DNA of 64,000 nt from Cellvibrionales bacterium UBA1963 (GCA_002336035.1 DDED01000160.1:18116-82115), one strand, 5' to 3'. Positions 15,308 through 57,485 are shown, counted from the stretch's first letter. Translations and numbers: made by a program. Notes: generated by a model from the sequence alone, not told the origin.

Positions 15308-15769
15308 TTGAGTATGGTTCAATCCACGATAAATAAGACATTGCAAAACGCTGAGGCAATGTGTCTTGATGCGGGTGTTAGGTTAACCGTAAAACGCAAA
15401 AGAACGTTAGCTTTATTATTAGAGGCGCAATCCCCCATTTCGGCTTATGAGTTAATCGATCAGTACAACGTTTGTTACAGCGGGTCGCTTACTGCGATGT
15501 CGGCTTATCGTATGTTGAACTTTCTAGTCGAAGCAACGCTCGCACATCGATTAAATTCGGTTAATAAATATACGGCGTGTGAGCATATTAATTGCGACCA
15601 CGCGCACCACCTGCCTCAATTTCTCATCTGTGGTAATTGTCAGTCAGTCTCCGAGGCAAGTATTCGACCAGAAACGTTAAATAAATTAAAAACCGATGTC
15701 CTCGACTCAGGCTTTACTCTTAATAATCAACAGCTTGAGCTTCATGGTTTGTGCAGTGACTGCCGCTAA
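15308..15769 (+). CDS. zur: Fur-family zinc uptake regulator (Zur-like)
   Basis: 153 aa. AEAMCLDAGVRLTVKRKRTLALLLEAQSPISAYELID aligns by eye with E. coli Zur (AEKICAQRNVRLTPQRLEVLRLM...ISAYDLLD). Cys pairs CGNC and CSDC are present. TTG start, with an alternative ATG at 15314. Confidence 0.8.
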   Translation: MSMVQSTINKTLQNAEAMCLDAGVRLTVKRKRTLALLLEAQSPISAYELIDQYNVCYSGSLTAMSAYRMLNFLVEATLAHRLNSVNKYTACEHINCDHAHHLPQFLICGNCQSVSEASIRPETLNKLKTDVLDSGFTLNNQQLELHGLCSDCR

Positions 15770-15891
15770 AAAAGTTCTTATAATGATCATTTAACAGCTT
15801 TTACCTCCCCCTATATTATGTTGTCAAAACGTAGCCTCTCCGTTACGCCCACGTTAATTGTGAAACAGTTTAATTATTACCCAGTCTGGTC

Positions 15892-15921
15892 TTGTAATGC
15901 ACAAATGATATGTTGTATCAT
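15892..15921 (+). promoter_or_regulatory. Sigma70-like promoter overlapped by a Fur/Zur-type palindrome
   Basis: TTGTAA (15892-15897), an 18-nt spacer, then TATCAT (15916-15921). The 17-bp inverted repeat ATGATATGTTGTATCAT (15905-15921) overlaps the -10 element. It is AT-rich with TGATA/TATCA arms, like Zur/Fur boxes. It lies 70 nt upstream of the ATG at 15991. Confidence 0.45.
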
Positions 15922-15990
15922 ATTGGACATCAGAACAACTGGTCTGAATAAATATTGGAACTTATAGAAATAATTAAACTGGACAGAACA

Positions 15991-16680
15991 ATGAAGGACT
16001 TAATTTTAGCGGGACTTTTTTCTGTGTTTGCTGCATCTGCATTTGCAAATGAACATGATCATGGGCATGGCGATCACGGCGATATCGTTGGTGAGGCAGA
16101 GGGCGGCGCAATAGAAGTAGAAACCGGCATGCCATTAGCAGGTGGCGGTCGATTATTTGAGGCTGATTTTGGTGATTTTGCACTCGGTACTTACGCAACG
16201 AATGCGCCAGGCTTTGAAGTGGAAGACGGCCCATTTGGCGCTTTGAATTACCTTGCCTACAACATGCAAAGCGATCTAAAAAGTTGGGATGGAATAAGTT
16301 GGGTTACTTCTTCTAACAGCCTATTCAGCATAGAAAACGACTATGAATCACCTACCCTTCAACCTTTTGCTAAAGGCATGATTGGTCAAGCAGATGATGA
16401 CGGCGGTGTACATACCCATATTGATTTCTTCATTGACCCTAATGCAGCAGTTGGTGCTTACCTGATTGAATTTATATTAGAGGGTTATACAGATAATGCC
16501 TTACAGTCTAGCAATGGCTATTCATCAGACTCCGTCTTTATTGCTTTCAATAATGGTTTAAGCTCAGAAGATTATGAGTTTGGTATAGACGCAATGTCAC
16601 CCGTACCCGTACCTGCTGCGGCCTGGTTATTTGTGTCAGGTTTAGCTGGCTTGGCTGGACTTCGCAAAGCGAGAAAATAA
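15991..16680 (+). CDS. Secreted protein, paralog A of an unnamed family (His-rich N-terminus, PEP-CTERM-like tail)
   Basis: Signal peptide MKDLILAGLFSVFAASAFA. Mature N-terminus NEHDHGHGDHGD. Conserved blocks ADFGDFALG, VHTHIDFF and VGAYLIEFIL. C-terminal tail PVPVPAAAWLFVSGLAGLAGLRKARK. The ORF opens at 15955 (TTG), but I prefer the ATG at 15991. Confidence 0.7.
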   Translation: MKDLILAGLFSVFAASAFANEHDHGHGDHGDIVGEAEGGAIEVETGMPLAGGGRLFEADFGDFALGTYATNAPGFEVEDGPFGALNYLAYNMQSDLKSWDGISWVTSSNSLFSIENDYESPTLQPFAKGMIGQADDDGGVHTHIDFFIDPNAAVGAYLIEFILEGYTDNALQSSNGYSSDSVFIAFNNGLSSEDYEFGIDAMSPVPVPAAAWLFVSGLAGLAGLRKARK

Positions 16681-16705
16681 AACTCAATATTTGAGTTACC
16701 CTAAT

Positions 16706-16740
16706 AAACCCAGAGGATTCTACTCTGGGTTTATTGTTTA
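16706..16740 (+). terminator. Rho-independent terminator after paralog A
   Basis: AAACCCAGAG-GATTCTA-CTCTGGGTTT forms a 10-bp perfect stem and is followed by the T-rich run ATTGTTTATTGTTTATT. Confidence 0.65.
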
Positions 16741-16764
16741 TTGTTTATTACGTTATAAAGGTAG

Positions 16765-17565
16765 GTGAAGATAGTGAAAAAGGGTGGATTCACGTTGATT
16801 AAAATTTTGAGTTTTGCAATAGCATTCTTGATAGGTCCTGTGTCTATTTCATATGCCCAACACAGTGATATATGGTTAACACTCACTGACAATCAAGTAA
16901 CGCCGACCGAAATTAACTCTGAAACCAACAGTCCTACCCTTGTTGATCTGACGACCGGAAAATTTTTATATCCCACTACCTTCGGCACTCCTAGTAATCC
17001 AGAAATACCAACAACAGGTGACCCTGGCTTCCAATCATCAGCGAATACGTTTGACCCAGGTTATATGTATTACCGTGCGGTAGGCTCTTTATGGTTCTGG
17101 AATGGCCAAGCATGGGTGAATAATGTCGTTGATCAAGAAAGAGTTAAACTCCGAGATGTTCAGTATGCTTACTCATTTGTTACACCAGATGGAGTTAGTA
17201 GCCCAGTAGGCGCAATTGACCAAATCGGTGGGGGTGGCTCTGTACATCAGCACATAAACTTTTATATTGAGAATTTAGGGTCAGCTAATCCAGCAACTGG
17301 CGCCTACATGATCGACATTGAGCTTTTCGTCACAAATACGATAGGCGGCAGTTTAGAAACGCACCTAAGCTCTGATCCCGTCAGAATCGCATTTAACTAT
17401 CAAATGAGTGAAACCGAATTTAGCGTTGCTATTAATGCACTCACATCGCCAACAGAGCCAGAACCTGTTTCGGTCCCCATGCCGAATGGCGCTCTGTTCT
17501 TGTTAGCTGCTTTGCTGTTAATATTTGGCTCTTTTAAGAACCGACGCAAAACTATAGTAAGATAA
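16765..17565 (+). CDS. Secreted protein, paralog B of the same family (PEP-CTERM-like tail)
   Basis: Signal peptide ending SISYAQ. Blocks GDPGF, AVGSLWFWNGQAWVNN, VHQHINFYI, TGAYMIDIELF and PVRIAFN. Tail VSVPMPNGALFLLAALLLIFGSFKNRRK. The start is ambiguous (GTG 16765, GTG 16774 or TTG 16795). Confidence 0.7.
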   Translation: MKIVKKGGFTLIKILSFAIAFLIGPVSISYAQHSDIWLTLTDNQVTPTEINSETNSPTLVDLTTGKFLYPTTFGTPSNPEIPTTGDPGFQSSANTFDPGYMYYRAVGSLWFWNGQAWVNNVVDQERVKLRDVQYAYSFVTPDGVSSPVGAIDQIGGGGSVHQHINFYIENLGSANPATGAYMIDIELFVTNTIGGSLETHLSSDPVRIAFNYQMSETEFSVAINALTSPTEPEPVSVPMPNGALFLLAALLLIFGSFKNRRKTIVR

Positions 17566-17584
17566 TTTTTTAATTTTCAGCCTT

Positions 17585-19132
17585 TTGAGTGTTAATAAAC
17601 CTGTGATAAATGCTTCTGGTTTTTTTTTGAAAATATGGTTTGAAAAAATCGCTTTTTTTAATTCTCCTCTTGTTAGGGCACTATTGCTTGCTTGTTTATT
17701 GACTGGCTGTGAGGGCGATGTCAGCGGCGGAGAGCAGACTGTAGTCAGTTCAGGAGGCCCAGCCTCGGGCGCCAGATTATTTGTTAATAATGTGGATGGA
17801 AACGATAATAACGACGGTATTAGTTTGCCCTTTAAATCACTTCAATACGCGCTGGATCAACTCCGGCCAGGCGATGTGCTGGTGATTCAGAGTACTGAGC
17901 AGGATTATCAAACAGATCAAGAGATCTCAGACCCTAATATTGATGGCAACATTCTGCGAGGCTTTCGATTAAGTACAAGCGGGACAAAATCTGCACCGAT
18001 TGTTATTGAGGGTGATATCACTTCACCCCCCACTATTCATCAAGGGCAATCTGACTTTGCTAATGACGGTAGTGCTCGGATTGGCCTGCTATTGGACTGC
18101 GTTAGTCACGTTGTTGTACGAAATCTAATAATAAGAGGAGTCAATGAGGCCGGTATTAGCAGTTCTATGGTGGGTGCTTGCGAAACAAGTAATGTCACTT
18201 TAGACGGCAACACTATTTACGATGTTTATGGTGAAAAGTATGTTGGCGGCATTCGGCTAATGGGCGTTAACGAGGTCATTATTCAGAACAATAAAATTCG
18301 TGATGTTTACACTCGGCAAGCTAATGAAGAACGTGGTTTGATTAAAGCTGGTAGCAGCCTATCCAATATTTTCATAGGCGATAATACATTTAATAATTTA
18401 GATGCCGGTGTTGTCCTTAATGCGCAGGGATTTGGTAGTACTGATTTTTATCCTGAAGAAGCGATAGTAAATATTCAGATACATAACAATACTTTTAAGC
18501 AAGTTGTGCGGCCAGTTAACTTCTATAATCAAATAAATGATTCCTCGGGAATTTATGAAATTAAAACAGGGTTATTCAAGTCTGTTGATGTTTCGGGTAA
18601 TTTATTTCTTACTGTGGAGGAATCTGCAATATTGGTTGAGCTAGGAGACAGTGAATATCAGTCAGAATCTTTTTGTCTATTCAATAATAATTTCATTGAC
18701 ACCGATTTGTCGGCAATTGATATTACAGGGGTTCAATACGCTGAGATATTTAATAATATTTTTGTTAGGCCGGAGAGTAATATTTTAGTGACACGGTCGC
18801 CTCAGAGTTCTATTGTAAATAGTATTGCCTACAGTAATTTTAATTTGTTTTTGGACGTTAAATATTTAACGTGGCAATTAGATGTAGGAGGTATGGCAGA
18901 GGAAGACTTTTCGGACCTGTCGAATTGGCAATATGCTCAATCTCATCCTGAGCTTAGCGTGGGGCCAGATCTCGACTCTTCAAATAATGATCCTCTATTT
19001 ATAGATCCGCTTGATGATTTTCGTTTGTCCGACGCATCTCCTGCTTTGCTAGCAGGGCGGTACGGTGCCTCTATTGGCTATGACTATACTTTGCCGTTAG
19101 ATTTTAAGTCTAACTGTCGAATGCTATTTTGA
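17585..19132 (+). CDS. Lipoprotein with right-handed parallel beta-helix repeats (DUF1565/pectin-lyase-fold-like)
   Basis: Lipobox LLACLLTGCEGD. N-terminal LFVNNVDGNDNNDGISLPFKSLQYALDQLRPGDVLVI is typical of beta-helix proteins, and periodic N/I/V-rich repeats follow (NTIYDV, IQNNKIRDV, IGDNTFNNL, IHNNTFKQV, FNNNFID, IFNNIFV). The start is uncertain (TTG 17585, GTG 17603 or TTG 17627 within a T9 tract). The gene overlaps the next by 4 nt. Confidence 0.65.
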   Translation: MSVNKPVINASGFFLKIWFEKIAFFNSPLVRALLLACLLTGCEGDVSGGEQTVVSSGGPASGARLFVNNVDGNDNNDGISLPFKSLQYALDQLRPGDVLVIQSTEQDYQTDQEISDPNIDGNILRGFRLSTSGTKSAPIVIEGDITSPPTIHQGQSDFANDGSARIGLLLDCVSHVVVRNLIIRGVNEAGISSSMVGACETSNVTLDGNTIYDVYGEKYVGGIRLMGVNEVIIQNNKIRDVYTRQANEERGLIKAGSSLSNIFIGDNTFNNLDAGVVLNAQGFGSTDFYPEEAIVNIQIHNNTFKQVVRPVNFYNQINDSSGIYEIKTGLFKSVDVSGNLFLTVEESAILVELGDSEYQSESFCLFNNNFIDTDLSAIDITGVQYAEIFNNIFVRPESNILVTRSPQSSIVNSIAYSNFNLFLDVKYLTWQLDVGGMAEEDFSDLSNWQYAQSHPELSVGPDLDSSNNDPLFIDPLDDFRLSDASPALLAGRYGASIGYDYTLPLDFKSNCRMLF

Positions 19133-21423
19133 GTTTAATGTTTATGCCATATGCTAAAGCACAGCAGTCTTTATCCCTTTTACTTAAATCGATTCGATTA
19201 AGGCGTGGTGTATTGTCAGCCATCAGTGCAGCCACTTTTTTTTCTTCTATGGCGGTTGCCGAAAACGCCATGGAGGAAGTGACGATTAATGCCCAGCAAC
19301 AGGTACAACAATCAATTTTAGGCTTTAGTACAATCGAATTATCAGGCGAAGAGTTACTCAGCAAACAAAGCGTTACTTTAGGTGATACGCTGGCCAATGA
19401 GATTGGCGTACACAATGCTTCATACGGTCCCGGTGTTGGCCTGCCTGTGTTGCGTGGCCTCTCTGGCGTGCGTGTGCGACTCAGCGCAGACGGTATCGGT
19501 GCATGGGACGGTTCCTCTCTTAGTCCTGACCATGCGACGGCTGTAGAACCTGCGCTAGCTAAAAGTATTCGGGTAATCAAAGGGCCTGCAACTGTTCTGC
19601 ATGGCAATAATGCAATTGGTGGCGCGGTAGAAGTAATTAATGGGAGAATTGCTGAGGAATTAGATTATCAAGCATTGAGCTCAGTCTTTGAACTAAGAAA
19701 AGAACTAAGCAACGATCATCAGCGTGACACCGCGATTGCTAAGCTTAAAACCGAAATGGGCAATTGGGTTTTACAAGTGGATGGCTTTATGAGGAGCGCT
19801 GAAGATATGAGTATTCCAGCGTTGGCCATTGAAGAAGAAGCCATCGAGCAAGTTTTTGGTATCAGTAATTCAGATAACACCTTTGGTACAGTATTAAATA
19901 CTGATTCAGAAACAGACAGTGGTTCAATTGGGCTAAGTTATGTCAATGATGATTTTTTTATTGGTGGTTCAAGCACAATAATTAACAGTGATTACGGTAT
20001 CCCGCCTGGCGCGCATACCGAGCCTGCGGATTCGCCAGGGCATAGTCATACACATCCAGTTGGTGACAACATCGCTGCTCAGTCGCGCGTTCGTATTGAT
20101 TTAGAGCAGGAGCGACATCTATTCAAGATTGGCGGTAAGCTGAGTCAGTTGGGTCTTGAGAACTTTCGCTTAACAATAGGAAATATTAAATATCAGCATC
20201 TTGAATTTGAACAAGATCCAATAACACAGGAATTCTTAAATGGCACTCGGTTTAAGAATGACGTGCTTGAAATTAAAGCCGAAGTTAACCACCACCTACT
20301 GGATCGGCTTAACACAAAGCACAGCGGCAAGATGGGTTTACAATGGGTAGATCTAGAGTTTTCTGCTGAGAACATGCGTATATTAGGCGGTGGCGAGGAT
20401 TTTATTCCTGCGGCTGATCAACGCTCGCTTGGTCTTTTCTTTTATGATCAGTTTCCATTAGCTATAGGTCTTCTGGAGATAGGTGGGCGCTATGAATGGC
20501 AAGAGATCTCACAACGTGAGTTAACAGCTGGATTGTTGCCCAACAATACCCAGTTTCTGCACGAGCCGATTACTTATCAAAACTATACTTTTTCAGGTGC
20601 ATTAAGTCTTGATTTATCCGATCGGCATCGATTGGTGCTTGGATTAAACTTGGCACAGCGCTCGCCTGAAATACAAGAATTACTTTCGCTGGGACCGCAT
20701 CTATCCACGCGTTCATACGATGTTGGCTTGCTGTTATTTAATAGTCAATCAGATGATTCTCCACCTGAGGCTGAAAAATTTAAGGGCGTTGATGTGCGCT
20801 GGGAGTGGCAGGGTGATATTGGCGATATGACTAGCTCTGTGTTTTATACCGAAGTGGATGATTTTATTTATCAGAAAAGAAGGACGAGAGGCGGACTTTT
20901 TGACATTTCGGATAACGTTTTTCGCAGTGCATGTGTCCGACTAGAGGAGTGTATTTCTGTTTTTGATTATACGCAGCACGACGCCACGCTGAGCGGCTAT
21001 GAATGGCAGTGGGCACTGCCCCCTATTGACCTTCTAGGTTCTGAGCTTCAAATAGAATTATTTGCCGATCATATTCGAGGAAGGCTAACAAACAATGAGG
21101 ATTTACCGAGAATGCCGCCTGCACGACGAGGCATTGGTCTGGAGTGGGCAAACGGGATTTTCTACTCAGAACTGCGTTATAATTTTGTCGCTGCGCAGGA
21201 AAAAATTGGAGAAAGTGAAGCTCCAACTTCTGCCTATGAGTTGTTGAATGCTTATATTTCTCTTACAGACGTCATTGACGGTCCGTATTATCAAGAAAGG
21301 ATTGTTTTTTTTCAGATGAAAAATTTATTAAATGAAGATATTCGAAAATCGACGTCCTTTTTAAGAAACTTCACTCCCGAGCCCGGTAGAGAGATAGTCT
21401 TAGGTATACGGTATCAACTTTAA
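19129..21423 (+). CDS. TonB-dependent outer membrane receptor with a His-rich extracellular-type segment (ZnuD-like by inference)
   Basis: 764 aa. Plug-domain motifs are LPVLRGLSGVRVRL and IKGPATVLHGNNAIGGAVEVI, with a TonB-box-like EEVTINA. The His-rich stretch is HTEPADSPGHSHTHPVGD. Alternative ATG starts lie at 19138 and 19144. Confidence 0.85.
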   Translation: MSLMFMPYAKAQQSLSLLLKSIRLRRGVLSAISAATFFSSMAVAENAMEEVTINAQQQVQQSILGFSTIELSGEELLSKQSVTLGDTLANEIGVHNASYGPGVGLPVLRGLSGVRVRLSADGIGAWDGSSLSPDHATAVEPALAKSIRVIKGPATVLHGNNAIGGAVEVINGRIAEELDYQALSSVFELRKELSNDHQRDTAIAKLKTEMGNWVLQVDGFMRSAEDMSIPALAIEEEAIEQVFGISNSDNTFGTVLNTDSETDSGSIGLSYVNDDFFIGGSSTIINSDYGIPPGAHTEPADSPGHSHTHPVGDNIAAQSRVRIDLEQERHLFKIGGKLSQLGLENFRLTIGNIKYQHLEFEQDPITQEFLNGTRFKNDVLEIKAEVNHHLLDRLNTKHSGKMGLQWVDLEFSAENMRILGGGEDFIPAADQRSLGLFFYDQFPLAIGLLEIGGRYEWQEISQRELTAGLLPNNTQFLHEPITYQNYTFSGALSLDLSDRHRLVLGLNLAQRSPEIQELLSLGPHLSTRSYDVGLLLFNSQSDDSPPEAEKFKGVDVRWEWQGDIGDMTSSVFYTEVDDFIYQKRRTRGGLFDISDNVFRSACVRLEECISVFDYTQHDATLSGYEWQWALPPIDLLGSELQIELFADHIRGRLTNNEDLPRMPPARRGIGLEWANGIFYSELRYNFVAAQEKIGESEAPTSAYELLNAYISLTDVIDGPYYQERIVFFQMKNLLNEDIRKSTSFLRNFTPEPGREIVLGIRYQL

Positions 21424-21424
21424 T

Positions 21425-22306
21425 ATGACGAATAAATACACTACCCACTTAATACTTTTGAGCTGCCTGACTTTATTGACGACAGCGCTACCGAGCTACG
21501 CGCAAGAAAATATAACGTGCAATAAATATGGCCATTTTGATCTATACATCGATGTTGATCCTCCGGGTGCGGACAGTGCTTTGTTATTGATTGATAATAG
21601 TGATGATTTTCCAGTTGAAGAGGGCACTGGTAGAACGATTGTGCCGGCCGATTTTGGAGATTTTGCTGGCGGCCCACATAAAACTGACGATCCTGGTTGG
21701 GTTATTAAGGGCGGTGATTTACTTGGCGGAGAGGTGTTATGGTTCCGCGCACTTGGATCGCTTCGCTTTTGGAGTAAAGATGAGCAACGCTGGCTAAATG
21801 ACGCACCCAACGGCGAGAGAGTCCGTTATTTTGGTGCGATACCGCCGGATGTCATGATTAATGGCAGCGATGAAGACAAGGATTTTTTCGAAGAGGGCAC
21901 CATTTGGTCAGGTGCGGGCATTCAAGGTCCACTAGAGGCTCCTATAGAAGAGGCTGTGGATGTGTCCCCCACGTATGACGCCGTCCATGCACATCTTGAT
22001 TTTTGCCTTGAGGGGAAAACCGCTTCAGGAGAAATGGGAGATTGTTCTATTGATGGCATCGGACACACGGGCGATCCCACAGTCGGAGCTTATTTAATTG
22101 AGATACAATTATTTTCTCACGCGGTACACAGTAATGGGCAACAACAAAAATACATTGACTCACCACCGGTGAAGGTCCTTTTAAATAATGGTTTAATTGC
22201 TAATGAATGTGTTGATGCCATTTCTGCTTTAACGACATATCCAAAGGTCTTTGATAATTCACCAGCCTTGCCGGCGGCAGGCATTTTAATTATGACAGGG
22301 CCTTAG
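21425..22306 (+). CDS. Secreted protein, paralog C of the same family (tail truncated)
   Basis: Signal peptide ending LPSYAQ. Blocks ADFGDFAGG, DDPGW, ALGSLRFWSKDEQRWLND, VHAHLDFCL, VGAYLIEIQLF and PVKVLLNNGL. The protein ends ...SPALPAAGILIMTGP with no basic tail. It starts 1 nt after the receptor stop. Confidence 0.7.
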   Translation: MTNKYTTHLILLSCLTLLTTALPSYAQENITCNKYGHFDLYIDVDPPGADSALLLIDNSDDFPVEEGTGRTIVPADFGDFAGGPHKTDDPGWVIKGGDLLGGEVLWFRALGSLRFWSKDEQRWLNDAPNGERVRYFGAIPPDVMINGSDEDKDFFEEGTIWSGAGIQGPLEAPIEEAVDVSPTYDAVHAHLDFCLEGKTASGEMGDCSIDGIGHTGDPTVGAYLIEIQLFSHAVHSNGQQQKYIDSPPVKVLLNNGLIANECVDAISALTTYPKVFDNSPALPAAGILIMTGP

Positions 22307-22330
22307 CATTAATTAGGTGATCTTGATTCT

Positions 22331-23302
22331 ATGCGCATTTTTCTTGCTCCAATGGAAGGTGTTATCGATCACCACTTCCGCACCCTCTACAGCGCCATCG
22401 GCGGGGTTGATATCTGTGTCAGTGAATTTATACGCGTCAATGATATTGCCGTCACTAAAAAAGTGTTCCTTCGTGACTGCCCTGAATTACAGTTCACTTC
22501 ATTTCATCAACAGCGCTTAAGTGCTACCCCTAGCGGAACACCATTGCGGGTTCAGTTATTAGGCAGTAACCCCGAGACAATTGCGGCCAGCGCGGCTATC
22601 GCCATAAGCTTAGGGGCTTCGGCGATTGATTTAAATTTTGGCTGCCCCGCCAAAACGGTGAATAAAAGTCGTGGCGGTGCGGTGCTGTTAAAAGAACCGC
22701 AACTGGTGGGTGAGATTGTTCGACAAGTGCGTGCGGCCGTCCCCAGTGAGCGACCGGTCACGGCAAAAATCCGCTTGGGTTTTGAAGACCGCAGCCTTTA
22801 TATGGATAACGCCTTGGCGATTGCTGACGGCGGTGCAACGGAACTTTGCGTGCATGCCCGTTCACGGGCCGACGGCTATCACCCGCCGGCCTATTGGTCT
22901 TATATTAAACGAATTGTTGAAGCGGTTTCGTTACCCGTGATTGCCAATGGTGAGGTGTGGTCGGTCGACGATTGGCGGCGTTGTCGAGAACAAACCGGTT
23001 GCGAGGATGTAATGCTAGGTCGCGGTTTAATTGCTTGCCCTGATTTAGCTTTACAAATAAAGGCGGCGGCGGCGGGGCAAGCGTATCAAGTGTTGGGTTG
23101 GTCGGCGGTAATGCGATTGCTTAACCAGTTTTATTATGACACTAAGACGGCTTATCCCCGTCGATGTTTAGGCAATCGGGTGAAGCAGTGGTTGTTTTAT
23201 TTACAGATGCATTACCCTGAAGCCAAAGATTTATTTGAACAGATTAAACGATACCGACAACCGCATGAATTTGAATTGGTGTTGGGCTTGCCTCAGGGCT
23301 AG
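22331..23302 (+). CDS. dusC: tRNA-dihydrouridine synthase C
   Basis: 323 aa, with MRIFLAPMEGV, IDLNFGCPAKTVN and a TIM-barrel Dus pattern. Length fits DusC. Confidence 0.82.
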   Translation: MRIFLAPMEGVIDHHFRTLYSAIGGVDICVSEFIRVNDIAVTKKVFLRDCPELQFTSFHQQRLSATPSGTPLRVQLLGSNPETIAASAAIAISLGASAIDLNFGCPAKTVNKSRGGAVLLKEPQLVGEIVRQVRAAVPSERPVTAKIRLGFEDRSLYMDNALAIADGGATELCVHARSRADGYHPPAYWSYIKRIVEAVSLPVIANGEVWSVDDWRRCREQTGCEDVMLGRGLIACPDLALQIKAAAAGQAYQVLGWSAVMRLLNQFYYDTKTAYPRRCLGNRVKQWLFYLQMHYPEAKDLFEQIKRYRQPHEFELVLGLPQG

Positions 23303-23886: not shown

Positions 23887-24660
23887 CTAACTCTCAACAA
23901 AGGCACGTTCAATCACATAATGGCCCTGGTTGCCGCTGCGAACCTCGTTAAAACCTCGCTCGTCCAATATGGCCGTCATGTCCTTGAGCATACTTGGGCT
24001 GCCACAAAGCATGAATCGATCGTCTTCTAAGTTAGGTTTTGGCAGGCCAAGGTCATGAAATAATTTCCCGCTGGTCATTAGATCCGTTAAGCGGCCATTG
24101 TTTTTATAGTCTTCGCGGGTAACGGTCGGGTAGTAAAGAAGTTTTTCGCGAACCATATCACCGAAATATTCATGTTGGGGCAGTTCATTCTCAATATAAT
24201 CGCTGTAGGCAAGCTCTGAGACTTCTCTAACGCCGTGCGCAAGGATAATCTTATCAAACTGTTCGTACACTTCGTAGTCTTTGATAATACTCATAAATGG
24301 AGCTAAGCCGGTACCGGTGCCAAGTAGGTATAAGTTTTTTCCAGGGAGCATTTCATCGGTGACCAACGTACCAAGCGGTTTTTTTCCGATCAAAACTTCG
24401 TCGCCAATTTTTAAGTGCTGCAATTTCGACGTCAATGGGCCATCTGGCACCTTGATACTAAAGAATTCTAACTCGTCTTCATAATTTGCACTGGCGATAC
24501 TGTAAGCACGTAAGAGTGGTTTACCTTCATGTTCAAGGCCAACCATCACAAAGTGACCGTTTTTAAAGCGAAAGCCGGCATCCCGTGTCGTTTTAAAACT
24601 GAATAGACTGTTGTTCCAGTGGTGGACGCTGGTCACGGTTTCTGTCATTAACTTAGCCAT
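23887..24660 (-). CDS. fpr: Ferredoxin--NADP+ reductase (bacterial subclass I, FprA-like)
   Basis: 257 aa, with RAYSIAS (FAD binding), LLGTGTGLAPF (NADP binding) and CGSPSM. The length matches the Azotobacter/Pseudomonas Fpr type. Confidence 0.9.
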   Translation of the reverse strand: MAKLMTETVTSVHHWNNSLFSFKTTRDAGFRFKNGHFVMVGLEHEGKPLLRAYSIASANYEDELEFFSIKVPDGPLTSKLQHLKIGDEVLIGKKPLGTLVTDEMLPGKNLYLLGTGTGLAPFMSIIKDYEVYEQFDKIILAHGVREVSELAYSDYIENELPQHEYFGDMVREKLLYYPTVTREDYKNNGRLTDLMTSGKLFHDLGLPKPNLEDDRFMLCGSPSMLKDMTAILDERGFNEVRSGNQGHYVIERAFVES

Positions 24661-24905
24661 TACTTTTCCTCAAACAAACAAAATCATCAACCCTAAATCA
24701 GAGAAGTGCACTATATAAGACCAGGATCGATAGGTATAGCGGGATATAAAGATATAATATATTTGTATTTCCGATATAATAACTGCCTGGCGAAACTGTT
24801 TTCAGCCAATTTAAATGATAACCAGTATCATTAAGCAGGTCAACACGGCAGGTAGTCACCCTACGGAGCTGTCATTTATGGGGTTTACAACAAAGGCATG
24901 AAATA

Positions 24906-25799
24906 ATGAAATTTACTTTGCGGCAATTACAGGTCTTTTTAGCGACAGCACGTTATCAAAATATTAGCCGGGCAGCTGAGAGCTTATCTATGTCACAGTC
25001 TGCGGCCAGCGGTGCGCTCAGAGACTTAGAGCAGCGCTACAATGCTCAGTTATTTGATCGTGTTGGCAAGCGGCTTCGTTTGAATATGTTGGGTCAATCT
25101 GTTCGGCCATTGGCAGAGGCGTTAATTTCGGGCGCAGAAGATGTTGATGTAATGTTGCAGCAGCAAATGCCAGCCGGCAGACTTCGGGTGGGTGCCACGC
25201 TCACGATAGGCAATTACATAGCGATTCCTATTATTGCAAATTTCAAGAACGACTACCCAGAAGTCAGTGTTCGCTTGCACGTGGCTAATACAGCCAACAT
25301 TGCCAAGCAAGTATTAGATTTCAATTTGGATGTGGGCCTTATTGAAGGTGAGTATTCACACACTGATTTATCAGTTGAGCCATGGTGCAAAGACGAGCTG
25401 ATTATTTTTTGCTCGCCTGAACATCCCTATGCGTCTAAAAAAAATCTAACCGATGAAGACTTAACTCAGGCGCAATGGATACTGCGCGAGCAGGGGTCAG
25501 GCACGCGTCAGACCTTTGATCGGGCGATGCACGGTTTGATTAATGAGGTCGATGTGCATTTAGAATTTGAACATACCGAAGCCATTAAACGGGCAGTAGA
25601 AGCAGGACTGGGTTTGGGCTGTTTGTCCATCATTCCTTTAGCGGATGCGTTTAAGCGAGGCAGCTTGGTCCCTTTAACGGTACGACATCGCGATATGACG
25701 AGGCAGTTTTATTTTGTCACTCATAATAAAAAGTTTCCATCCAGGGGGCTTCAATCGTGGCTTGATTGCTGTCGAGCCACGCACCCCGAGGTGGTTTAG
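24906..25799 (+). CDS. LysR-family transcriptional regulator divergent from fpr (FinR-like by position)
   Basis: 297 aa, with N-terminal HTH LRQLQVFLATARYQNISRAAESLSMSQSAASGALRDLE. The divergent arrangement with fpr mirrors finR-fprA in Pseudomonas (from memory). Confidence 0.8.
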   Translation: MKFTLRQLQVFLATARYQNISRAAESLSMSQSAASGALRDLEQRYNAQLFDRVGKRLRLNMLGQSVRPLAEALISGAEDVDVMLQQQMPAGRLRVGATLTIGNYIAIPIIANFKNDYPEVSVRLHVANTANIAKQVLDFNLDVGLIEGEYSHTDLSVEPWCKDELIIFCSPEHPYASKKNLTDEDLTQAQWILREQGSGTRQTFDRAMHGLINEVDVHLEFEHTEAIKRAVEAGLGLGCLSIIPLADAFKRGSLVPLTVRHRDMTRQFYFVTHNKKFPSRGLQSWLDCCRATHPEVV

Positions 25800-31061: not shown

Positions 31062-32615
31062 CTATAGTTTTCCTGCATGCTTCATGACATGAAAGATAAA
31101 ATGTTGCTCTACAGTGCCGTTGAGTAAATGGGCCCAAGGGCCTTGTGCGTAAACAGCAACGTCATCGCCTGCATGCGTTTCGGTCGCCAAAGGAACTCCC
31201 GCTTCTTGATGGTAGTGTGCAGTTTCAGGGTCATCGCTGAGGGTGGTTTGCCGAGAGGCTTGGCCGAGGCTTTGAAACCGCGCATATGGATTTTTAGGGT
31301 CGGGGGGCTGGTTATAATAACCTGGCCCATTAGCGTAACTTAAGGTGGTATACGGTTTTTTGTCGGCTGCAAGACTGGGAGAGTCTTCTGCTTCGCCAGA
31401 TGCATTATTGCCAGTGACAAACCCTAAAATTGGATTTCCGCGCGTTGGGTAACCAGCTAAGGTTAATGTATGGCTATGGTCAGCAGTCACCACCATTAAC
31501 GTTTTCTTCAAATTGACTTTTTGGCCAGCAAGTTTAATGGCTTGTTCAAATGCGTAAAAATCCTCTAACGCTCGATAAGCGTTGCCGACATGGTGGGCAT
31601 GATCAATGCGGCCAGCTTCGACAATAAGTAAAAATCGCTTACTCTTTTGTAGCTGTGTTAGGGCGGCATTTACCATTTCACTAAGGCTGGGCTGGCCCCT
31701 TTCGCTGTCGTCTCTATCGGCTTCAAAATCTAGGTGAGAATCTGCAAATAAGCCTAATAGCTTATCGCTGCCGTTAGCGTCATAACGCATTAATTGCCCT
31801 CGATTTTGAAGGTAGCGGCCATGAGGGTGGCGCTCTTGCCAAATTGAGATCAAGTCATTGTCGTCGCTTCGCTTACCTTTTCCACGGGTAGACCCTTTAG
31901 GTAAAAAATGACTACGACCTCCACCCAGTAATACATCAATACCATCGCCGTGTTTAAATTCAACAAACTGCCGAGCAATATCACGACAGCCATTTGCTTT
32001 TGCGTTGCCGGGTAAGTCTGTATCGGTTTCCCAATTACGTTCAGGGCTATGAGCATAACTGGCGGCAGGTGTGGCATGGGTTACTGTTGTCGTAGTAACT
32101 ATACCTGTTGCCCAGTTATTATTTTCAGCAAGCTCTAATAAAGTTGTTATATGCTGTTTATTGCAAGCATTTGAGTCTGCGCGGGCGATATCAGCGCCCA
32201 TACTGAGCACGCCAGCCTTCGTTTTTTCGCCGGTAATCAATGCTGTCATGGTGCCAGCTGAGTCCGGTGTTTGCTGGTTAGTATTGTAAGTTTTAACGAG
32301 CCCGACAGATGGAAATTTCTCAAATGATAAGACGTGCTCCTCACCATTACCACCAATTTTCTGGCCAATATAAATGCGTCCAGCGGTGACGGTGGCAACG
32401 CTCATGCCGTCGCCAACAAATAAAATAATCCCTTCGGCAGTGCGGCGATTAGTTTTCTGATGAAGAGTTTTTTGTAAAGTTCTTTCTGCCGCTTCATAAC
32501 TACTAGCGGTAACGCTGTCTGGTTGAGCAAAGCTATGACTACCAATAACCAAGGTAAGAATGACAGAAAAAAAGGCATAGTGATGGGGGCGCGAATGCAT
32601 CATTGGATTTTCCAT
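31062..32615 (-). CDS. Alkaline phosphatase (PhoA-family fold)
   Basis: 517 aa with a signal peptide. Active-site region TPDSAGTMTAL. Metal ligands are DHAHH and TADHSH. Confidence 0.85.
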   Translation of the reverse strand: MENPMMHSRPHHYAFFSVILTLVIGSHSFAQPDSVTASSYEAAERTLQKTLHQKTNRRTAEGIILFVGDGMSVATVTAGRIYIGQKIGGNGEEHVLSFEKFPSVGLVKTYNTNQQTPDSAGTMTALITGEKTKAGVLSMGADIARADSNACNKQHITTLLELAENNNWATGIVTTTTVTHATPAASYAHSPERNWETDTDLPGNAKANGCRDIARQFVEFKHGDGIDVLLGGGRSHFLPKGSTRGKGKRSDDNDLISIWQERHPHGRYLQNRGQLMRYDANGSDKLLGLFADSHLDFEADRDDSERGQPSLSEMVNAALTQLQKSKRFLLIVEAGRIDHAHHVGNAYRALEDFYAFEQAIKLAGQKVNLKKTLMVVTADHSHTLTLAGYPTRGNPILGFVTGNNASGEAEDSPSLAADKKPYTTLSYANGPGYYNQPPDPKNPYARFQSLGQASRQTTLSDDPETAHYHQEAGVPLATETHAGDDVAVYAQGPWAHLLNGTVEQHFIFHVMKHAGKL

Positions 32616-54237: not shown

Positions 54238-55254
54238 CTATGGTGGCATTATCGATGCTGCCATAGCGTATTTAAACTGGTGAAATAAACCGTTGGTCGT
54301 TATCGCGCTGTAATGGCCCTTACTGGTAAATGCCACGGCTAACACTGTCGATTGGTTAGGCTTTATAAAATACCGTTTAGGCATCGTCCATTGTTGCTGA
54401 AGCTTAAATGCGACTAAATCCCATAGTTGCACAACCCCTCCTGTTGTTCCTGTCAGTAACCACCGATTATCGTTTGAAAACTTTGCCGCTGTGAATACGA
54501 CCCCACGTTTTAAATGACTTTTAGACAAGGGTATCTCGCCGAACAAACTTGCGTTATTGGTATTCCAGACGATAACTTTGTCGTATCTTGCTACGGTGAG
54601 TGCTAGGCTCCCATCGGGTGACAATTTGACTAGGTTAACTGGGCCATTATGAGCAAGCCGTTTACTGTGCAGGGGCTTTGATAAATTCCATATTTTAGCG
54701 CTATGATCGTCCGAACCAGTGATAGCAATGTTTGTATTGGCATTAAGGTCAACACTGTTTACGCGTCCTTTATGATTGAAGACTGCTAGGGTTGATCCTG
54801 AGGGAATATCGATCATCAGTGACGTATGATTCTCTAGGGCAATAATCATTGCATTATTCTGATTCAAGAGGGCAAGTTGATTAATCTTACTGGGAGCCAG
54901 AAAAGATCTAATATGAAAACCGTGAGAAGCGTTCCAAATAGAGATTGACGTGTTATTGCTGACGGTTGCGGCTAATTCCCCGTTATCCGTGATTGAGACA
55001 AGGTGAATAGCTTCATCTTGCTCAGGGTTATGATGCCACTTAAAAAGACGATTTTTACTTTGATTATCCCAGAGACTGGCGCCATTATTCATCGAGCCGA
55101 TAATCGCAATTTTTCCGCTTTCATTGATCGCTGCAGAGTAAATACCATCATTTGCCAACACCGCATAATCCTGTGAGCGATCATTGATGCAACCGACTAA
55201 TGCTATTGTAAGAGAGATTAGCAATAGCGCAGGCGTTTGTTTGGCTGCTATCAT
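54238..55254 (-). CDS. WD40/beta-propeller repeat lipoprotein
   Basis: Lipobox LVGCINDRS. Repeated units end in (I/V)W(N/D), for example ASLWDN, ISIWNA, AKIWNL, VIVWNT and VQLWDL. Confidence 0.65.
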   Translation of the reverse strand: MIAAKQTPALLLISLTIALVGCINDRSQDYAVLANDGIYSAAINESGKIAIIGSMNNGASLWDNQSKNRLFKWHHNPEQDEAIHLVSITDNGELAATVSNNTSISIWNASHGFHIRSFLAPSKINQLALLNQNNAMIIALENHTSLMIDIPSGSTLAVFNHKGRVNSVDLNANTNIAITGSDDHSAKIWNLSKPLHSKRLAHNGPVNLVKLSPDGSLALTVARYDKVIVWNTNNASLFGEIPLSKSHLKRGVVFTAAKFSNDNRWLLTGTTGGVVQLWDLVAFKLQQQWTMPKRYFIKPNQSTVLAVAFTSKGHYSAITTNGLFHQFKYAMAASIMPP

Positions 55255-56873: not shown

Positions 56874-57044
56874 TGTAACAATTTCTCCTGGCAAGCATTG
56901 CTAGTCTCGTGCCAATGCTCCGCTCTTCTATACTATTTAAGTAAGTTTGACGCCAATTTATCGATCAAGAATACAGTAAATCATAGTTGAAAATCATGAT
57001 AAATCATCACAATGTGGAAAAGATGTAAAAGGGTAATACAGTCA

Positions 57045-57485
57045 ATGGTAAGATCAAAGAAAAATAGATTGGCAGCGGTCGGTCTGCTGTTGACTCTGCT
57101 CGTCGTGTCTCAACTTAGCCGCGCAGAAGAAAAAACTGATGTTGGTGATCGAGGCATGAGTGATGCATTTTATATCGCAATAGAACCAACGTTAGTGAGT
57201 CATTTTGGTGACGCTAACGACATCGCTTACATCAAAAGCGAAGTCAGCGTGCGAGTAAATAACATTGAGGCAAAAGATTTCGTCAATTTACATCAGCCAT
57301 TGATTAGAGATTTATTGTTGACCAATTTTTCTGTGATGACGCATGAAGCATTGAATAATAGAGACAAAAAAGAGCAATTTCAAAAAAGACTTCTCACCAT
57401 TCTAAAAAAAGAGCTGATAAAAGAGGGGGCGCAGGCGGCATCAATTGAGAATGTGTTGTTTACCCGTTTTTCAGTGTACCAATAA
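57045..57485 (+). CDS. FliL-like basal-body-associated protein (orphan copy)
   Basis: An N-terminal TM/signal segment is followed by YIAIEPTLVSHF...YIKSEVSVRV...HQPLIRDLLLTNFS...KEQFQKRLL, the FliL-family pattern. An alternative start lies at 57012. Confidence 0.55.
   Translation: MVRSKKNRLAAVGLLLTLLVVSQLSRAEEKTDVGDRGMSDAFYIAIEPTLVSHFGDANDIAYIKSEVSVRVNNIEAKDFVNLHQPLIRDLLLTNFSVMTHEALNNRDKKEQFQKRLLTILKKELIKEGAQAASIENVLFTRFSVYQ

What the first reader, a model, noticed from the sequence alone, without database searches (positions are those of the whole stretch)
15308..22306. Zur-linked cluster: three paralogous secreted proteins, a beta-helix lipoprotein and a His-rich TonB-dependent receptor form a candidate uncharacterised zinc-capture system
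A Zur-like repressor gene (15308-15769) is followed by a promoter overlapped by a Fur-family-type palindrome. Five same-strand genes come next, and all are predicted to be exported.
- Paralog A (15991-16680) is followed by its own terminator.
- Paralog B (16765-17565), a beta-helix lipoprotein (17585-19132), a TonB-dependent receptor (19129-21423) and paralog C (21425-22306) follow. The last three are packed with a 4-nt overlap and a 1-nt gap, so they look like one operon.
- His/Asp-rich stretches of the kind used for zinc capture occur at the mature N-terminus of A (NEHDHGHGDHGD) and inside the receptor (HTEPADSPGHSHTHPVGD).

The paralog family has no characterised counterpart that I recognise. 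The pairing of a receptor with a co-encoded surface lipoprotein recalls bipartite TbpAB-type receptors. By eye the block is more AT-rich than the flanking housekeeping genes (tyrosine phosphatase and zur upstream, dusC downstream), which suggests accessory origin. No znuABC or COG0523 gene is present, so this would be a self-contained outer-membrane module.
Basis: partly seen in the sequence, partly recalled or inferred. Interest (0 to 1): 0.8.

Follow-up and report, generated by a model that had tools for sequence, protein, structure and literature searches.

The report
Zur-linked outer-membrane zinc capture gene module
A marine gammaproteobacterium carries a conserved six-gene block, probably zinc-repressed, that pairs a ZnuD-like outer-membrane zinc importer with three exported proteins of an undescribed histidine-site family and a beta-helix lipoprotein; it is most likely a new way of scavenging scarce zinc.

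Summary
In detail: all six ORFs, the A/B/C paralogy, the His-rich stretches, the terminator after A and the tight gene packing are real.

- **Regulator:** best matches Zur and keeps the Zur-type Cys/His positions.
- **Operator:** a 21-bp palindromic box overlaps the -10 of the A promoter. It is almost invariant in 13 otherwise diverged type-I loci.
- **Receptor:** its closest solved relative is ZnuD, and its His-rich loop aligns with ZnuD's.
- **Paralogs:** they define a family with no Pfam entry and no PDB relative, about 1,100 clusters at 50% identity. Its hallmark is H-x-D...H-x-H, 94-100% conserved.
- **Display:** Distant members are autotransporter passengers.
- **Linkage:** family member + ZnuD-like receptor in every locus that includes the flank (24/24); beta-helix in all 15 C-type GTDB species whose locus reaches it; fur gene adjacent in 10 of 15.
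- **Closest known system:** Anabaena ZepA (2024), a Zur-repressed PEP-CTERM zinc-binding exoprotein. There is no detectable sequence homology to it, so it is an analogue.
- **Composition:** not distinct from the rest of the window, so the AT-rich/accessory claim fails.

Verdict: a new variant of a known kind, supported only in silico.

The parts
15308..15769 (+). zur-like Fur-family repressor gene (153 aa)
   Evidence: Pfam FUR E 1.6e-8. NCBIfam Zur scores 88 bits against Fur 44 bits, both below their cut-offs. Best PDB hits are 7dh7 (E 7e-22) and E. coli Zur 4mtd (E 7e-17). The aligned His, Cys, His, CxxC, Glu and CxxC positions are kept.
15892..15921 (+). sigma-70-like promoter of gene A (TTGTAA-18-TATCAT)
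   Evidence: Consensus scan, 9 of 12 positions. This is not significant on its own. Its position relative to the conserved box is what gives it weight.
15903..15923 (+). Zur-type operator AAATGATATGTTGTATCATAT, a pseudo-palindrome ATGATA-N5-TATCAT that overlaps the -10
   Evidence: It occurs once in the window, 0.03 expected. It is invariant within diverged intergenic regions. It is present upstream of A in all 13 type-I loci checked. Related boxes occur in type-II loci, and one lies upstream of a COG0523 gene in Marinibactrum.
15991..16680 (+). Paralog A: signal peptide, His/Asp-rich mature N-terminus, H-x-D...H-x-H core, VPLPA/PEP-CTERM tail
   Evidence: TIGR03370 matches residues 205-226 at 25.8 bits, cut-off 25.35. 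His-rich tails of variable length occur in all A orthologues. The family profile matches.
16702..16746 (+). Intrinsic terminator or attenuator after A
   Evidence: 14-bp stem plus T-run. The equivalent hairpin plus T-run is present in 11 of 12 lineages.
16765..17565 (+). Paralog B: signal peptide, mature N-terminus QHSDIW, core domain, PEP-CTERM-like tail (VPMP, hydrophobic stretch, RRK)
   Evidence: BLASTP to A 2e-13 and to C 1e-13. 33 orthologues share the same termini. No HMM hit for the tail; it was read by eye.
17585..19132 (+). Right-handed beta-helix lipoprotein
   Evidence: Pfam Beta_helix E 2.3e-9. The lipobox Cys42 is conserved. AF2 pLDDT 79, pTM 0.78. Foldseek finds GH136, alginate lyase, RbmB, rhamnogalacturonan lyase and Pel9A at E 5e-7 to 1e-3.
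19129..21423 (+). ZnuD-like TonB-dependent receptor with a conserved His-rich loop (GAHTEP...HSHxHP)
   Evidence: NCBIfam ZnuD E 1.4e-66 over the full length, but 226 bits against a cut-off of 950. The best PDB hit is ZnuD 4rdr, E 2e-31, and the His-rich loops align. The loop is conserved in 18 of 22 cluster receptors.
21425..22306 (+). Paralog C: signal peptide, conserved Cys pairs, H-F-D...H-A-H core, invariant C-terminal LPAAGILIMTGP, no membrane anchor
   Evidence: Alignments A3 and A6. AF2 pLDDT 89, pTM 0.83. No PDB structural match at E <= 1e-3. It always lies immediately downstream of the receptor.

Best explanation
This is a Zur-repressed, cell-envelope zinc-scavenging module.

1. When zinc is plentiful, Zn-Zur sits on the 21-bp box that overlaps the -10 of the single promoter in front of A. 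When zinc is scarce, the promoter opens.
2. Most transcripts stop at the hairpin after A, so A is made in excess. Read-through yields B, the lipoprotein, the receptor and C from tightly coupled genes.
3. A and B are exported by Sec and handled through their PEP-CTERM-type tails. They end up on or around the cell surface.
4. A's flexible His/Asp tail collects Zn2+. The conserved H-x-D...H-x-H site of the core domain holds it.
5. The ZnuD-like TonB-dependent receptor has its own conserved His-rich loop. It takes the metal and imports it using TonB energy.
6. The outer-membrane beta-helix lipoprotein acts either as a co-receptor or as a glycan-cutting helper.
7. C is anchor-less and always translated right after the receptor. 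It is the soluble partner, probably a periplasmic acceptor that passes zinc on to an inner-membrane importer encoded elsewhere.

**Shown:** the gene content, the conservation, the sequence and structural affinities, and the operator footprint.

**Inferred:** zinc specificity, zinc binding by the tetrad, the localisation of each protein, the hand-over steps, and the roles of the lipoprotein and of C.
For: **Regulator**
- It is Zur-like and keeps the Zur-type ligand positions.

**Operator**
- The box is invariant in 13 diverged type-I loci and overlaps the -10.
- In type-II loci, which have no adjacent fur gene, canonical Zur-type boxes (GTTATGTTATAACATAAC) sit in the same place. The same core precedes a COG0523 gene 4 kb away in Marinibactrum.

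**Receptor**
- ZnuD is its best NCBIfam match and its best PDB match.
- The His-rich loop aligns with ZnuD's and is conserved.

**Paralog family**
- H37, D39, H188 and H190 are 94-100% conserved in 321 members.
- His-rich tails or inserts of variable length occur in A-type members.
- Every member is built for export or display, through a signal peptide, a PEP-CTERM tail, an autotransporter or a dockerin.

**Linkage**
- All 15 GTDB species with a C-type gene carry an A-like or other family gene. The receptor and the beta-helix gene are present in all 14 whose fetched locus includes the upstream flank.
- 10 of the 15 also have a fur-family gene within the locus.
- More distant members again sit beside ZnuD-like receptors. 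One of them also has a FUR gene and a DUF1826 gene nearby.
- The module lies in at least 4 different genomic neighbourhoods.

**Precedent**
- ZepA is a Zur-repressed Sec + PEP-CTERM exoprotein with a His-rich N-terminus and a 3-His site. It binds zinc and aids growth at low zinc (PMC10957091).
Against: - There are no expression, localisation or metal-binding data for any component.
- The regulator and the receptor both score below the curated equivalog cut-offs (88 against 167 bits; 226 against 950 bits).
- His-rich tails also bind Ni, Cu and Co.
- I had no model coordinates, so I could not show that the four conserved residues form one site. Covariation only places the HxH strand next to the DDPGW strand, and the HxD strand near residues 64 and 82.
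- I could not check for an exosortase, because the window has none and whole genomes could not be read.
- The lipoprotein's fold points to glycan chemistry, not metal handling.
- The E. coli Zur motif is not discriminating here: 12 hits against 14 expected at up to 3 mismatches.
Confidence: 0.55

Rival explanations
1. The architecture is the same but the metal is different. The Fur-family regulator senses Ni, Co, Cu, Mn or Fe, and the module imports that metal.
For: - The regulator is below the Zur equivalog cut-off.
- His-rich tails are not zinc-specific.
- The beta-helix protein has a weak NosD (copper-related) Pfam hit, E 0.003.
- The receptor plug gives a weak TonB-copper hit.
- In L007 and L008 the module lies beside ferritin and Fer2_BFD genes.
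Against: - Zur outscores Fur and PerR two-fold, and the Cys-containing Zur regulatory-site pattern is kept.
- ZnuD is by far the best receptor match, at 1e-66 against 1e-20 or weaker for the haem, transferrin and copper receptor models. The His loops align.
- The box in Marinibactrum is shared with a COG0523 promoter.
- DUF1826 lies next to a distant family member.
- The NosD hit is below its cut-off.
Confidence: 0.12
2. The module responds to zinc starvation but buffers or spares zinc in the envelope. A, B and C store or chaperone zinc for extracytoplasmic enzymes, as Zcp (DUF4198) or ZinT do, and do not feed the receptor.
For: - Zcp is a Zur-induced periplasmic 3-His protein that is dispensable for uptake (PMC12663993).
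- C has no anchor and may stay in the periplasm.
- No inner-membrane importer is encoded in the block.
Against: - The family-receptor adjacency is universal, and TBDR and C are translationally coupled.
- Surface-display formats, namely PEP-CTERM tails and autotransporter passengers, point outward and not to the periplasm.
- There is no DUF4198 Pfam hit and no structural match to any PDB entry.
Confidence: 0.15
3. The module is a glycan-directed or matrix-remodelling system under Zur control. Lectin-like beta-sandwich proteins, a beta-helix lyase or hydrolase and a receptor for the released sugar would serve zinc-starvation-induced aggregation or adhesion.
For: - The beta-helix model matches GH136, alginate lyase, RbmB matrix lyase and Pel9A.
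- The best, non-significant, Foldseek hits of C are fimbrial lectins.
- PEP-CTERM proteins are classically linked to exopolysaccharide.
- Zur-regulated congregation genes exist in Vibrio cholerae (PMC8248653).
Against: - The receptor is in the ZnuD clade with a conserved His loop and does not resemble a carbohydrate-type receptor.
- The invariant His/Asp tetrad and the His-rich tails are hard to explain for a lectin.
- The Foldseek hits for C have TM 0.2-0.26 and E > 1e-3.
- The beta-helix alignment shows no conserved catalytic signature that I could recognise.
Confidence: 0.1

Closest known systems
ZepA (All3515) of Anabaena sp. PCC 7120 and its orthologues (Sarasa-Buisan et al. 2024, PMC10957091)
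   Same: - Zur-repressed.
- Sec signal peptide plus a C-terminal PEP-CTERM tail.
- His/Asp-rich mature N-terminus, and a conserved histidine cluster in a beta-sandwich protein.
- A Zur-type box overlaps the promoter.
- In Proteobacteria the neighbours include a fur-family gene, TonB-dependent transporters, COG0523 genes and other PEP-CTERM proteins.
- It is rare and patchily distributed.
   Different: - No detectable sequence homology: hhalign probability 1.1%, BLASTP finds nothing, and the family HMM against ZepA scores -1 bit.
- The ZepA motif H-X2-9-H-F/Y-H, near the N-terminus, is absent from all 327 collected family proteins.
- This family instead has H-x-D at the start of the domain plus H-x-H about 150 residues later.
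- Here there are three paralogs per locus, one of them without an anchor. They are fixed in an operon with a ZnuD-like receptor and a beta-helix lipoprotein.
- Structural relatedness could not be tested, because no ZepA model was available.
ZnuD / TdfJ of Neisseria (PDB 4rdr)
   Same: - It is the best NCBIfam and PDB match of the receptor.
- It has plug and barrel domains.
- Its His-rich extracellular loop is at the aligned position.
- It belongs to a Zur regulon.
   Different: - The receptor scores only 226 bits against an equivalog cut-off of 950.
- ZnuD works alone, or on host S100 proteins. It has no co-encoded family of exported binding proteins and no lipoprotein.
HasA-HasR hemophore systems and T6SS zinc-scavenging effectors (YezP, TseZ)
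   Same: The logic is the same: an exported metal- or cofactor-binding protein delivers its cargo to a dedicated TonB-dependent receptor, and the binding protein is expressed in excess.
   Different: - The cargo or the secretion route differs (T1SS or T6SS there, Sec plus PEP-CTERM here).
- The folds are unrelated.
- These resemblances are recalled from the literature and were not tested here.
Zcp (DUF4198) and ZinT periplasmic zinc-binding proteins
   Same: They are Zur-induced small beta-rich proteins with a 3-His zinc site, and so a possible model for paralog C.
   Different: - No Pfam DUF4198 or ZinT hit.
- No PDB structural match.
- A and B carry surface-sorting tails.
TbpA-TbpB bipartite receptors
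   Same: A TonB-dependent receptor is co-encoded with an outer-membrane lipoprotein.
   Different: The lipoprotein is a right-handed beta-helix that resembles polysaccharide lyases and GH136 enzymes. It is not a bilobed TbpB-type protein, and no TbpB-family Pfam hit was found.

Membership tests
Zur (Fur family zinc uptake regulator) | Fur-family domain | tested here: met
   PF01475 at 35.2 bits, cut-off 23.1.
Zur (Fur family zinc uptake regulator) | Scores above the curated Zur equivalog threshold | tested here: not met
   NF008646 scores 88 bits against a cut-off of 167. It is still the best of all the Fur-family models, with Fur at 44 bits and PerR at 27 bits.
Zur (Fur family zinc uptake regulator) | Structural Cys4 site plus the His/Cys/His/Glu sensing site of E. 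coli Zur (residue numbers recalled from the 4mtd literature) | tested here: met
   In the alignment to 4mtd, the query has H, C, H, CxxC, E and CxxC opposite the corresponding E. coli Zur residues.
Zur (Fur family zinc uptake regulator) | Zinc-dependent binding to a Zur box, with repression | not testable with these tools
   Only a phylogenetic footprint is available. The box is invariant in 13 type-I loci and overlaps the -10.
ZnuD-type zinc TonB-dependent receptor | Plug plus 22-strand barrel domains | tested here: met
   PF07715 and PF00593 both match.
ZnuD-type zinc TonB-dependent receptor | Above the NCBIfam ZnuD cut-off | tested here: not met
   226 bits against 950. The alignment is full-length, E 1.4e-66.
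ZnuD-type zinc TonB-dependent receptor | His/Asp-rich extracellular loop at the ZnuD position | tested here: met
   HSHTHPVGD aligns with the ZnuD segment DDDNAHAHTHSGRP. The loop is conserved in 18 of 22 cluster receptors.
ZepA family (as defined in PMC10957091) | At least 35% identity over at least 75% coverage to ZepA | tested here: not met
   No significant BLASTP alignment, and hhalign probability 1.1%.
ZepA family (as defined in PMC10957091) | Zinc-site motif H-X2-9-H-F/Y-H | tested here: not met
   0 of 327 collected family proteins have it.
ZepA family (as defined in PMC10957091) | N-terminal signal peptide and C-terminal PEP-CTERM tail | tested here: met
   Met for A (TIGR03370). Met for B by inspection. 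Not met for C, whose tail is truncated and has no basic cluster.
PEP-CTERM / exosortase substrates | Proline-containing motif, then a transmembrane helix, then a basic cluster at the C-terminus | tested here: met
   A scores 25.8 bits on TIGR03370, cut-off 25.35. Several relatives carry PF07589.
PEP-CTERM / exosortase substrates | A cognate exosortase is encoded in the genome | not testable with these tools
   No exosortase is present in the 64-kb window. Whole genomes could not be read.
TbpB-type receptor lipoprotein | Bilobed TbpB fold or TbpB Pfam domains | tested here: not met
   Only Beta_helix and a weak NosD hit were found. Foldseek finds beta-helix carbohydrate-active enzymes.
DUF4198 / Zcp | Pfam DUF4198 domain | tested here: not met
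   A, B and C have no Pfam hit at E <= 0.1.

The most novel reading that the evidence does not exclude
The H-x-D...H-x-H domain is a previously unrecognised, widespread family of surface-displayed zinc-capturing proteins. It comprises about 1,100 clusters at 50% identity. It has no detectable sequence relationship to ZepA and no counterpart among solved structures.

Together with a ZnuD-like receptor and a beta-helix lipoprotein, it would form a self-contained protein-based zincophore system. That system could be a principal high-affinity zinc route in uncultured marine Pseudomonadales and Cellvibrionales. Its three paralogs would divide the work among capture (A), surface relay (B) and periplasmic acceptance (C).
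Probability: 0.4. Interest if true: 0.78.

Novelty: new variant of a known kind. Interest (0 to 1): 0.62.

Why it matters
- **Open question.** How Gram-negative bacteria move zinc across the outer membrane is known for few systems, and hardly at all for marine oligotrophs living at picomolar zinc.
- **What this module adds.** It offers a defined, conserved parts list: regulator, operator, three exported binding proteins, lipoprotein and receptor. It also offers a sharp, mutable site, the H-x-D/H-x-H tetrad.
- **Testability.** It occurs in culturable genera (Microbulbifer, Marinibactrum), so the hypothesis can be tested directly.
- **Evolutionary implication.** If confirmed, protein-based zinc scavenging with PEP-CTERM display would have arisen at least twice, or would have diverged beyond recognition.
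- **Annotation and field use.** It would give a function to a family of more than 1,000 unannotated protein clusters, including autotransporter passengers. It would also provide a marker gene set for zinc stress in ocean metagenomes and metatranscriptomes.

Tried and rejected
**Searches for a known family, all negative**
- Pfam and NCBIfam on A, B and C gave no family hit. The only match was the sorting tail of A.
- A profile of 108 members against all PDB sequences gave nothing at E <= 10.
- Foldseek of the confident C model against the PDB gave nothing at E <= 1e-3. The best TM-scores were 0.2-0.26 (fimbrial lectins, a GH123 N-terminal domain), which I treat as noise.

**ZepA homology, rejected at the sequence level**
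- Tested with hhalign, BLASTP, HMM searches in both directions and the ZepA motif.
- Only a faint similarity of one C-terminal hairpin remains (ZepA 217-259).

**Other tests**
- Compositional island: rejected.
- Plasmid carriage: tblastn of C against 72,556 plasmids found no match.
- The E. coli Zur degenerate motif is not discriminating in this AT-rich window.
I repeated it with C-type sequences only.
- Mean-field DCA on 321 sequences gave plausible strand pairings but cannot prove that the four conserved residues form one site.
- Rfam and tRNA scans of the window found nothing.
- The second ATGATA-N5-TATCAT site at 24815-24831 lies between fpr and a LysR gene. It is not conserved in that form in L001, so it is probably a LysR-type site and unrelated.
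- Literature searches for PEP-CTERM with Zur and a TonB-dependent receptor, and for ZepA follow-ups, found no description of this family.

Full report
**1. The observation**

| Gene | Coordinates | Evidence |
|---|---|---|
| zur-like | 15308-15769 | Pfam FUR, E 1.6e-8 |
| A | 15991-16680 | no Pfam hit |
| B | 16765-17565 | no Pfam hit |
| beta-helix protein | 17585-19132 | Beta_helix, E 2.3e-9; NosD only weakly |
| TonB-dependent receptor (TBDR) | 19129-21423 | Plug + barrel |
| C | 21425-22306 | no Pfam hit |

- A, B and C are true paralogs by BLASTP: 2e-13, 2e-7 and 1e-13.
- The 4-nt overlap, the 1-nt gap, the two His-rich stretches and the terminator after A (16702-16736) are all present.
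- The palindrome is AAATGATATGTTGTATCATAT at 15903-15923. It overlaps the TATCAT -10 of a TTGTAA-18-TATCAT promoter-like site. It occurs once in the window, against 0.03 expected.

**2.

- A ends in a VPLPA-CTERM/PEP-CTERM sorting domain (TIGR03370, 25.8 bits, cut-off 25.35).
- B ends in the same kind of tail: VPMP, a hydrophobic stretch, then RRK.
- C ends in a shorter, strongly conserved LPAAGILIMTGP that has no basic cluster.
- The block is not compositionally distinct. Its GC is 0.425 against 0.441 for the rest of the window. Twenty percent of 7-kb windows are as low or lower, and GC3 values overlap those of rho and gshA.
- The rest of the window is ordinary chromosome (tolC, parE, parC, waaA, typA, efp, psd, rho, purD and others). 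It holds no znuABC, COG0523 or exosortase gene.

**3. Regulator and operator**

- The regulator scores best against Zur: NCBIfam Zur 88 bits, Fur 44 bits and PerR 27 bits, all below their cut-offs.
- Its best solved relatives are 7dh7 (E 7e-22) and E. coli Zur 4mtd (E 7e-17).
- In the 4mtd alignment it keeps His, Cys, His, CxxC, Glu and CxxC at the positions of the E. coli Zur metal sites. The residue roles are recalled from the literature.
- Aligning the zur-A spacers of six loci shows sequence that is otherwise diverged, with the 21-bp box invariant.
- All 13 type-I loci examined carry AAATGATATGTTGTATCAT(A/T)T, or a variant with one to three changes, 70-230 nt upstream of A.
- In loci without an adjacent fur gene, the same position holds classic Zur-type palindromes:
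  - GTTATGTTATAACATAAC in Marinibactrum and in L029;
  - GAATGTTATAACATATCA in L024;
  - AATGTAATGTTGTAACGTTAC in L022 and L023;
  - ATGATATGATATA(C/G)TATA in the two Microbulbifer genomes.
- In Marinibactrum the core GTTATAACATAAC also precedes a cobW/COG0523 gene 4 kb away. COG0523 is a hallmark member of Zur regulons (PMC6103462).
- The boxes resemble the Zur sites reported upstream of zepA genes, TGATAA-N-TTATCA (PMC10957091 S1 File).
- The degenerate E. coli motif is not informative here.

**4. Receptor**

- NCBIfam's ZnuD model aligns over the full length (E 1.4e-66). The score is 226 bits against a cut-off of 950. The next-best receptor models are at 1e-20 or weaker.
- The best solved structure is ZnuD 4rdr (E 2e-31). 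The window's HSHTHPVGD aligns with the ZnuD segment DDDNAHAHTHSGRP.
- The loop motif GAHTEPxDSPGHSHxHP is conserved in the cluster receptors of all type-I loci and most type-II loci.

**5. The paralog family**

- A search with B alone found 33 homologues, all unannotated, from marine metagenomes and Pseudomonadales MAGs.
- A three-sequence profile found at least 150. They include Microbulbifer and Marinibactrum proteins, all called 'hypothetical'.
- An exhaustive profile search of 1.84 billion cluster representatives found 1,111 hits at E <= 1e-3, 619 at E <= 1e-10 and 144 at E <= 1e-30.
- Some long members carry the domain at the N-terminus of autotransporters (PF03797 + PATR), or together with dockerin or InlB-type repeats. 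The domain is therefore consistently displayed outside the cytoplasm.
- In 321 aligned members, H37 is 94% conserved, D39 97%, H188 99% and H190 100% (C numbering). P90 and G91 are 100%, and W116, W123 and GAY221-223 are also highly conserved.
- A-type proteins add His/Asp-rich N-terminal tails of variable length, or EGHDHD-type inserts.
- AF2 gives a confident beta-rich model of C (pLDDT 89, pTM 0.83).
- Foldseek finds no PDB structure at E <= 1e-3, and the family profile finds no PDB sequence.
- Covariation analysis (Meff 238) pairs the HxH strand with the DDPGW strand, and puts the HxD strand near residues 64 and 82. This is compatible with one conserved surface patch but does not prove it.

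**6. Linkage**

- A pattern scan of 185,579 species-representative genomes found C-type genes in only 15 species. All are marine Gammaproteobacteria: Pseudomonadales and Cellvibrionales MAGs, two Microbulbifer and Marinibactrum.
- In the 14 of these whose locus includes the upstream flank, a ZnuD-like receptor lies immediately upstream of C, with an A-like gene and the beta-helix gene beside it. The fifteenth, L025, is cut just upstream of C. Ten of the 15 also have a fur-family gene in the locus.
- Two architectures exist:
  - Type I is fur > A > B > beta-helix > TBDR > C.
  - Type II has the beta-helix gene divergent from A-like > TBDR > C. Some type-II loci also have an extra paralog divergent from a second fur-like gene.
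- The module sits in at least four different neighbourhoods.
- More distant family members (L006, L027, L028, L029) also lie beside receptors of the same clade (phmmer 1e-109 to 1e-147). In L027 the neighbours also include FUR and DUF1826.
- No homologue is on any of 72,556 plasmids.
- The hairpin plus T-run after A recurs in 11 of 12 lineages, with a different sequence each time. In the window only about 30 nt separate it from B, and no second box exists there. I therefore read it as an internal attenuator that sets A in excess over B through C.

**7. The lipoprotein**

- It has 39 homologues, all from the same taxa.
- The lipobox Cys and a Cys172/Cys199 pair are conserved, and there are Asn ladders. 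No His is invariant.
- The AF2 model (pLDDT 79, pTM 0.78) matches right-handed beta-helix glycan enzymes: GH136 lacto-N-biosidase, alginate lyase, the Vibrio matrix lyase RbmB, rhamnogalacturonan lyase and Pel9A. These matches have E 5e-7 to 1e-3 and TM 0.3-0.4.
- It is not TbpB-like. Its role is the least constrained part of the model.

**8. Comparison with the known**

- The closest known system is ZepA of Anabaena (PMC10957091). ZepA is:
  - Zur-repressed;
  - built from a Sec signal and a PEP-CTERM tail;
  - His-rich at its N-terminus, with a 3-His site;
  - loaded with about 1.5 Zn per monomer;
  - helpful for growth at low zinc;
  - flanked in Proteobacteria by fur-family, TBDT, COG0523 and other PEP-CTERM genes.
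- I took the ZepA sequence from that paper's S2 Fig. I found no significant similarity to this family: hhalign probability 1.1%, no BLASTP alignment, the family HMM at -1 bit, and the ZepA motif absent from all 327 collected proteins.
- A faint match of one C-terminal hairpin leaves very remote homology open. Only a structure superposition could settle that.
- The module therefore works like ZepA plus ZnuD, but it is not a member of the ZepA family as that family was defined.
- Zcp/DUF4198 (PMC12663993) is a conceptual model for the anchor-less C, but it is unrelated by Pfam and by fold search.

**9. Verdict**

- The finding is real and conserved.
- It is best explained as a Zur-controlled zinc-capture module. 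The module is built around a new His-tetrad domain family, displayed through PEP-CTERM tails, and a ZnuD-like receptor.
- It is a new variant of a known kind.
- Everything functional is still inference. My confidence in the zinc-capture mechanism is about 0.55.

Noticed in passing
window 22267-22303 (C-terminus of paralog C); alignment A6: C-type proteins end in a nearly invariant LPAAG(I/V)LIM(T/S)GP. It aligns with the first half of the PEP-CTERM tails of A and B but lacks the rest of the helix and the basic cluster. This looks like a truncated sorting signal kept under strong selection. Its function is unexplained.
   Followed up: partly
window 24815-24831: A second perfect ATGATA-N5-TATCAT palindrome (ATGATAACCAGTATCAT) lies between the divergent ferredoxin-NADP reductase-like gene (23887-24660, - strand) and a LysR regulator (24906-25799, + strand). 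It is probably a LysR-type T-N11-A site. It is not conserved in this form in L001.
   Followed up: partly
window 56992-57011: A Fur/Zur-like pseudo-palindrome AATCATGATAAATCATCACA lies directly upstream of a FliL-like gene (57012-57485) and downstream of dsbB. It differs from the E. coli Zur motif at 2 positions.
   Followed up: no
window 60097-62134 (- strand): A 342-aa HupE/UreJ_2 family protein, a family of putative Ni/Co-type metal transporters, overlaps a PPIC-type rotamase-like gene. This is another metal-related membrane protein in the window, with no link to the cluster shown.
   Followed up: no
window 54238-55254 (- strand): A bacterial WD40 beta-propeller protein (338 aa) gives many hits to eukaryote-type WD40 families.
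   Followed up: no
window 31062-32615 (- strand): A PhoA-family alkaline phosphatase, a zinc-dependent exported enzyme, lies 9 kb from the cluster. It is a plausible consumer of envelope zinc, but no regulatory link was examined.
   Followed up: no
proteins P0241, P0287, P0284, P0293, P0228, P0283: The H-x-D...H-x-H domain also occurs as the N-terminal passenger domain of 930-1,200-aa autotransporters, and fused to dockerin or InlB B-repeats. Their genomic contexts were not examined.
   Followed up: partly
L027 3763-9600: A distant family member lies between a divergent ZnuD-like receptor and DUF1826 plus a 131-aa FUR-family gene. A second family paralog and another PEP-CTERM protein are nearby. 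This is a third architecture of the same theme.
   Followed up: partly
L028 7799-8003: The receptor/family-gene spacer holds several TGCAA-N5-6-TTGCA palindromes (ATGCAACACTATTGCAT, TAGCAACTGAATTGCAT) in place of a Zur-type box. The operator may differ in that lineage.
   Followed up: no
L022 11508-13078, L023 8547-10114, L025 3309-4850: In three type-II genomes an additional family paralog lies divergent from a second, more distant fur-like gene (E 1e-19 to 3e-21 against the window Zur), a few kb from the main cluster.
   Followed up: no
window 22306-22331: Only 24 nt separate the stop codon of C from the start of dusC, and there is no terminator between them. The only terminator-like hairpin (22267-22281) lies inside C and encodes the conserved LPAAG. 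dusC may therefore be partly co-transcribed with the cluster.
   Followed up: no
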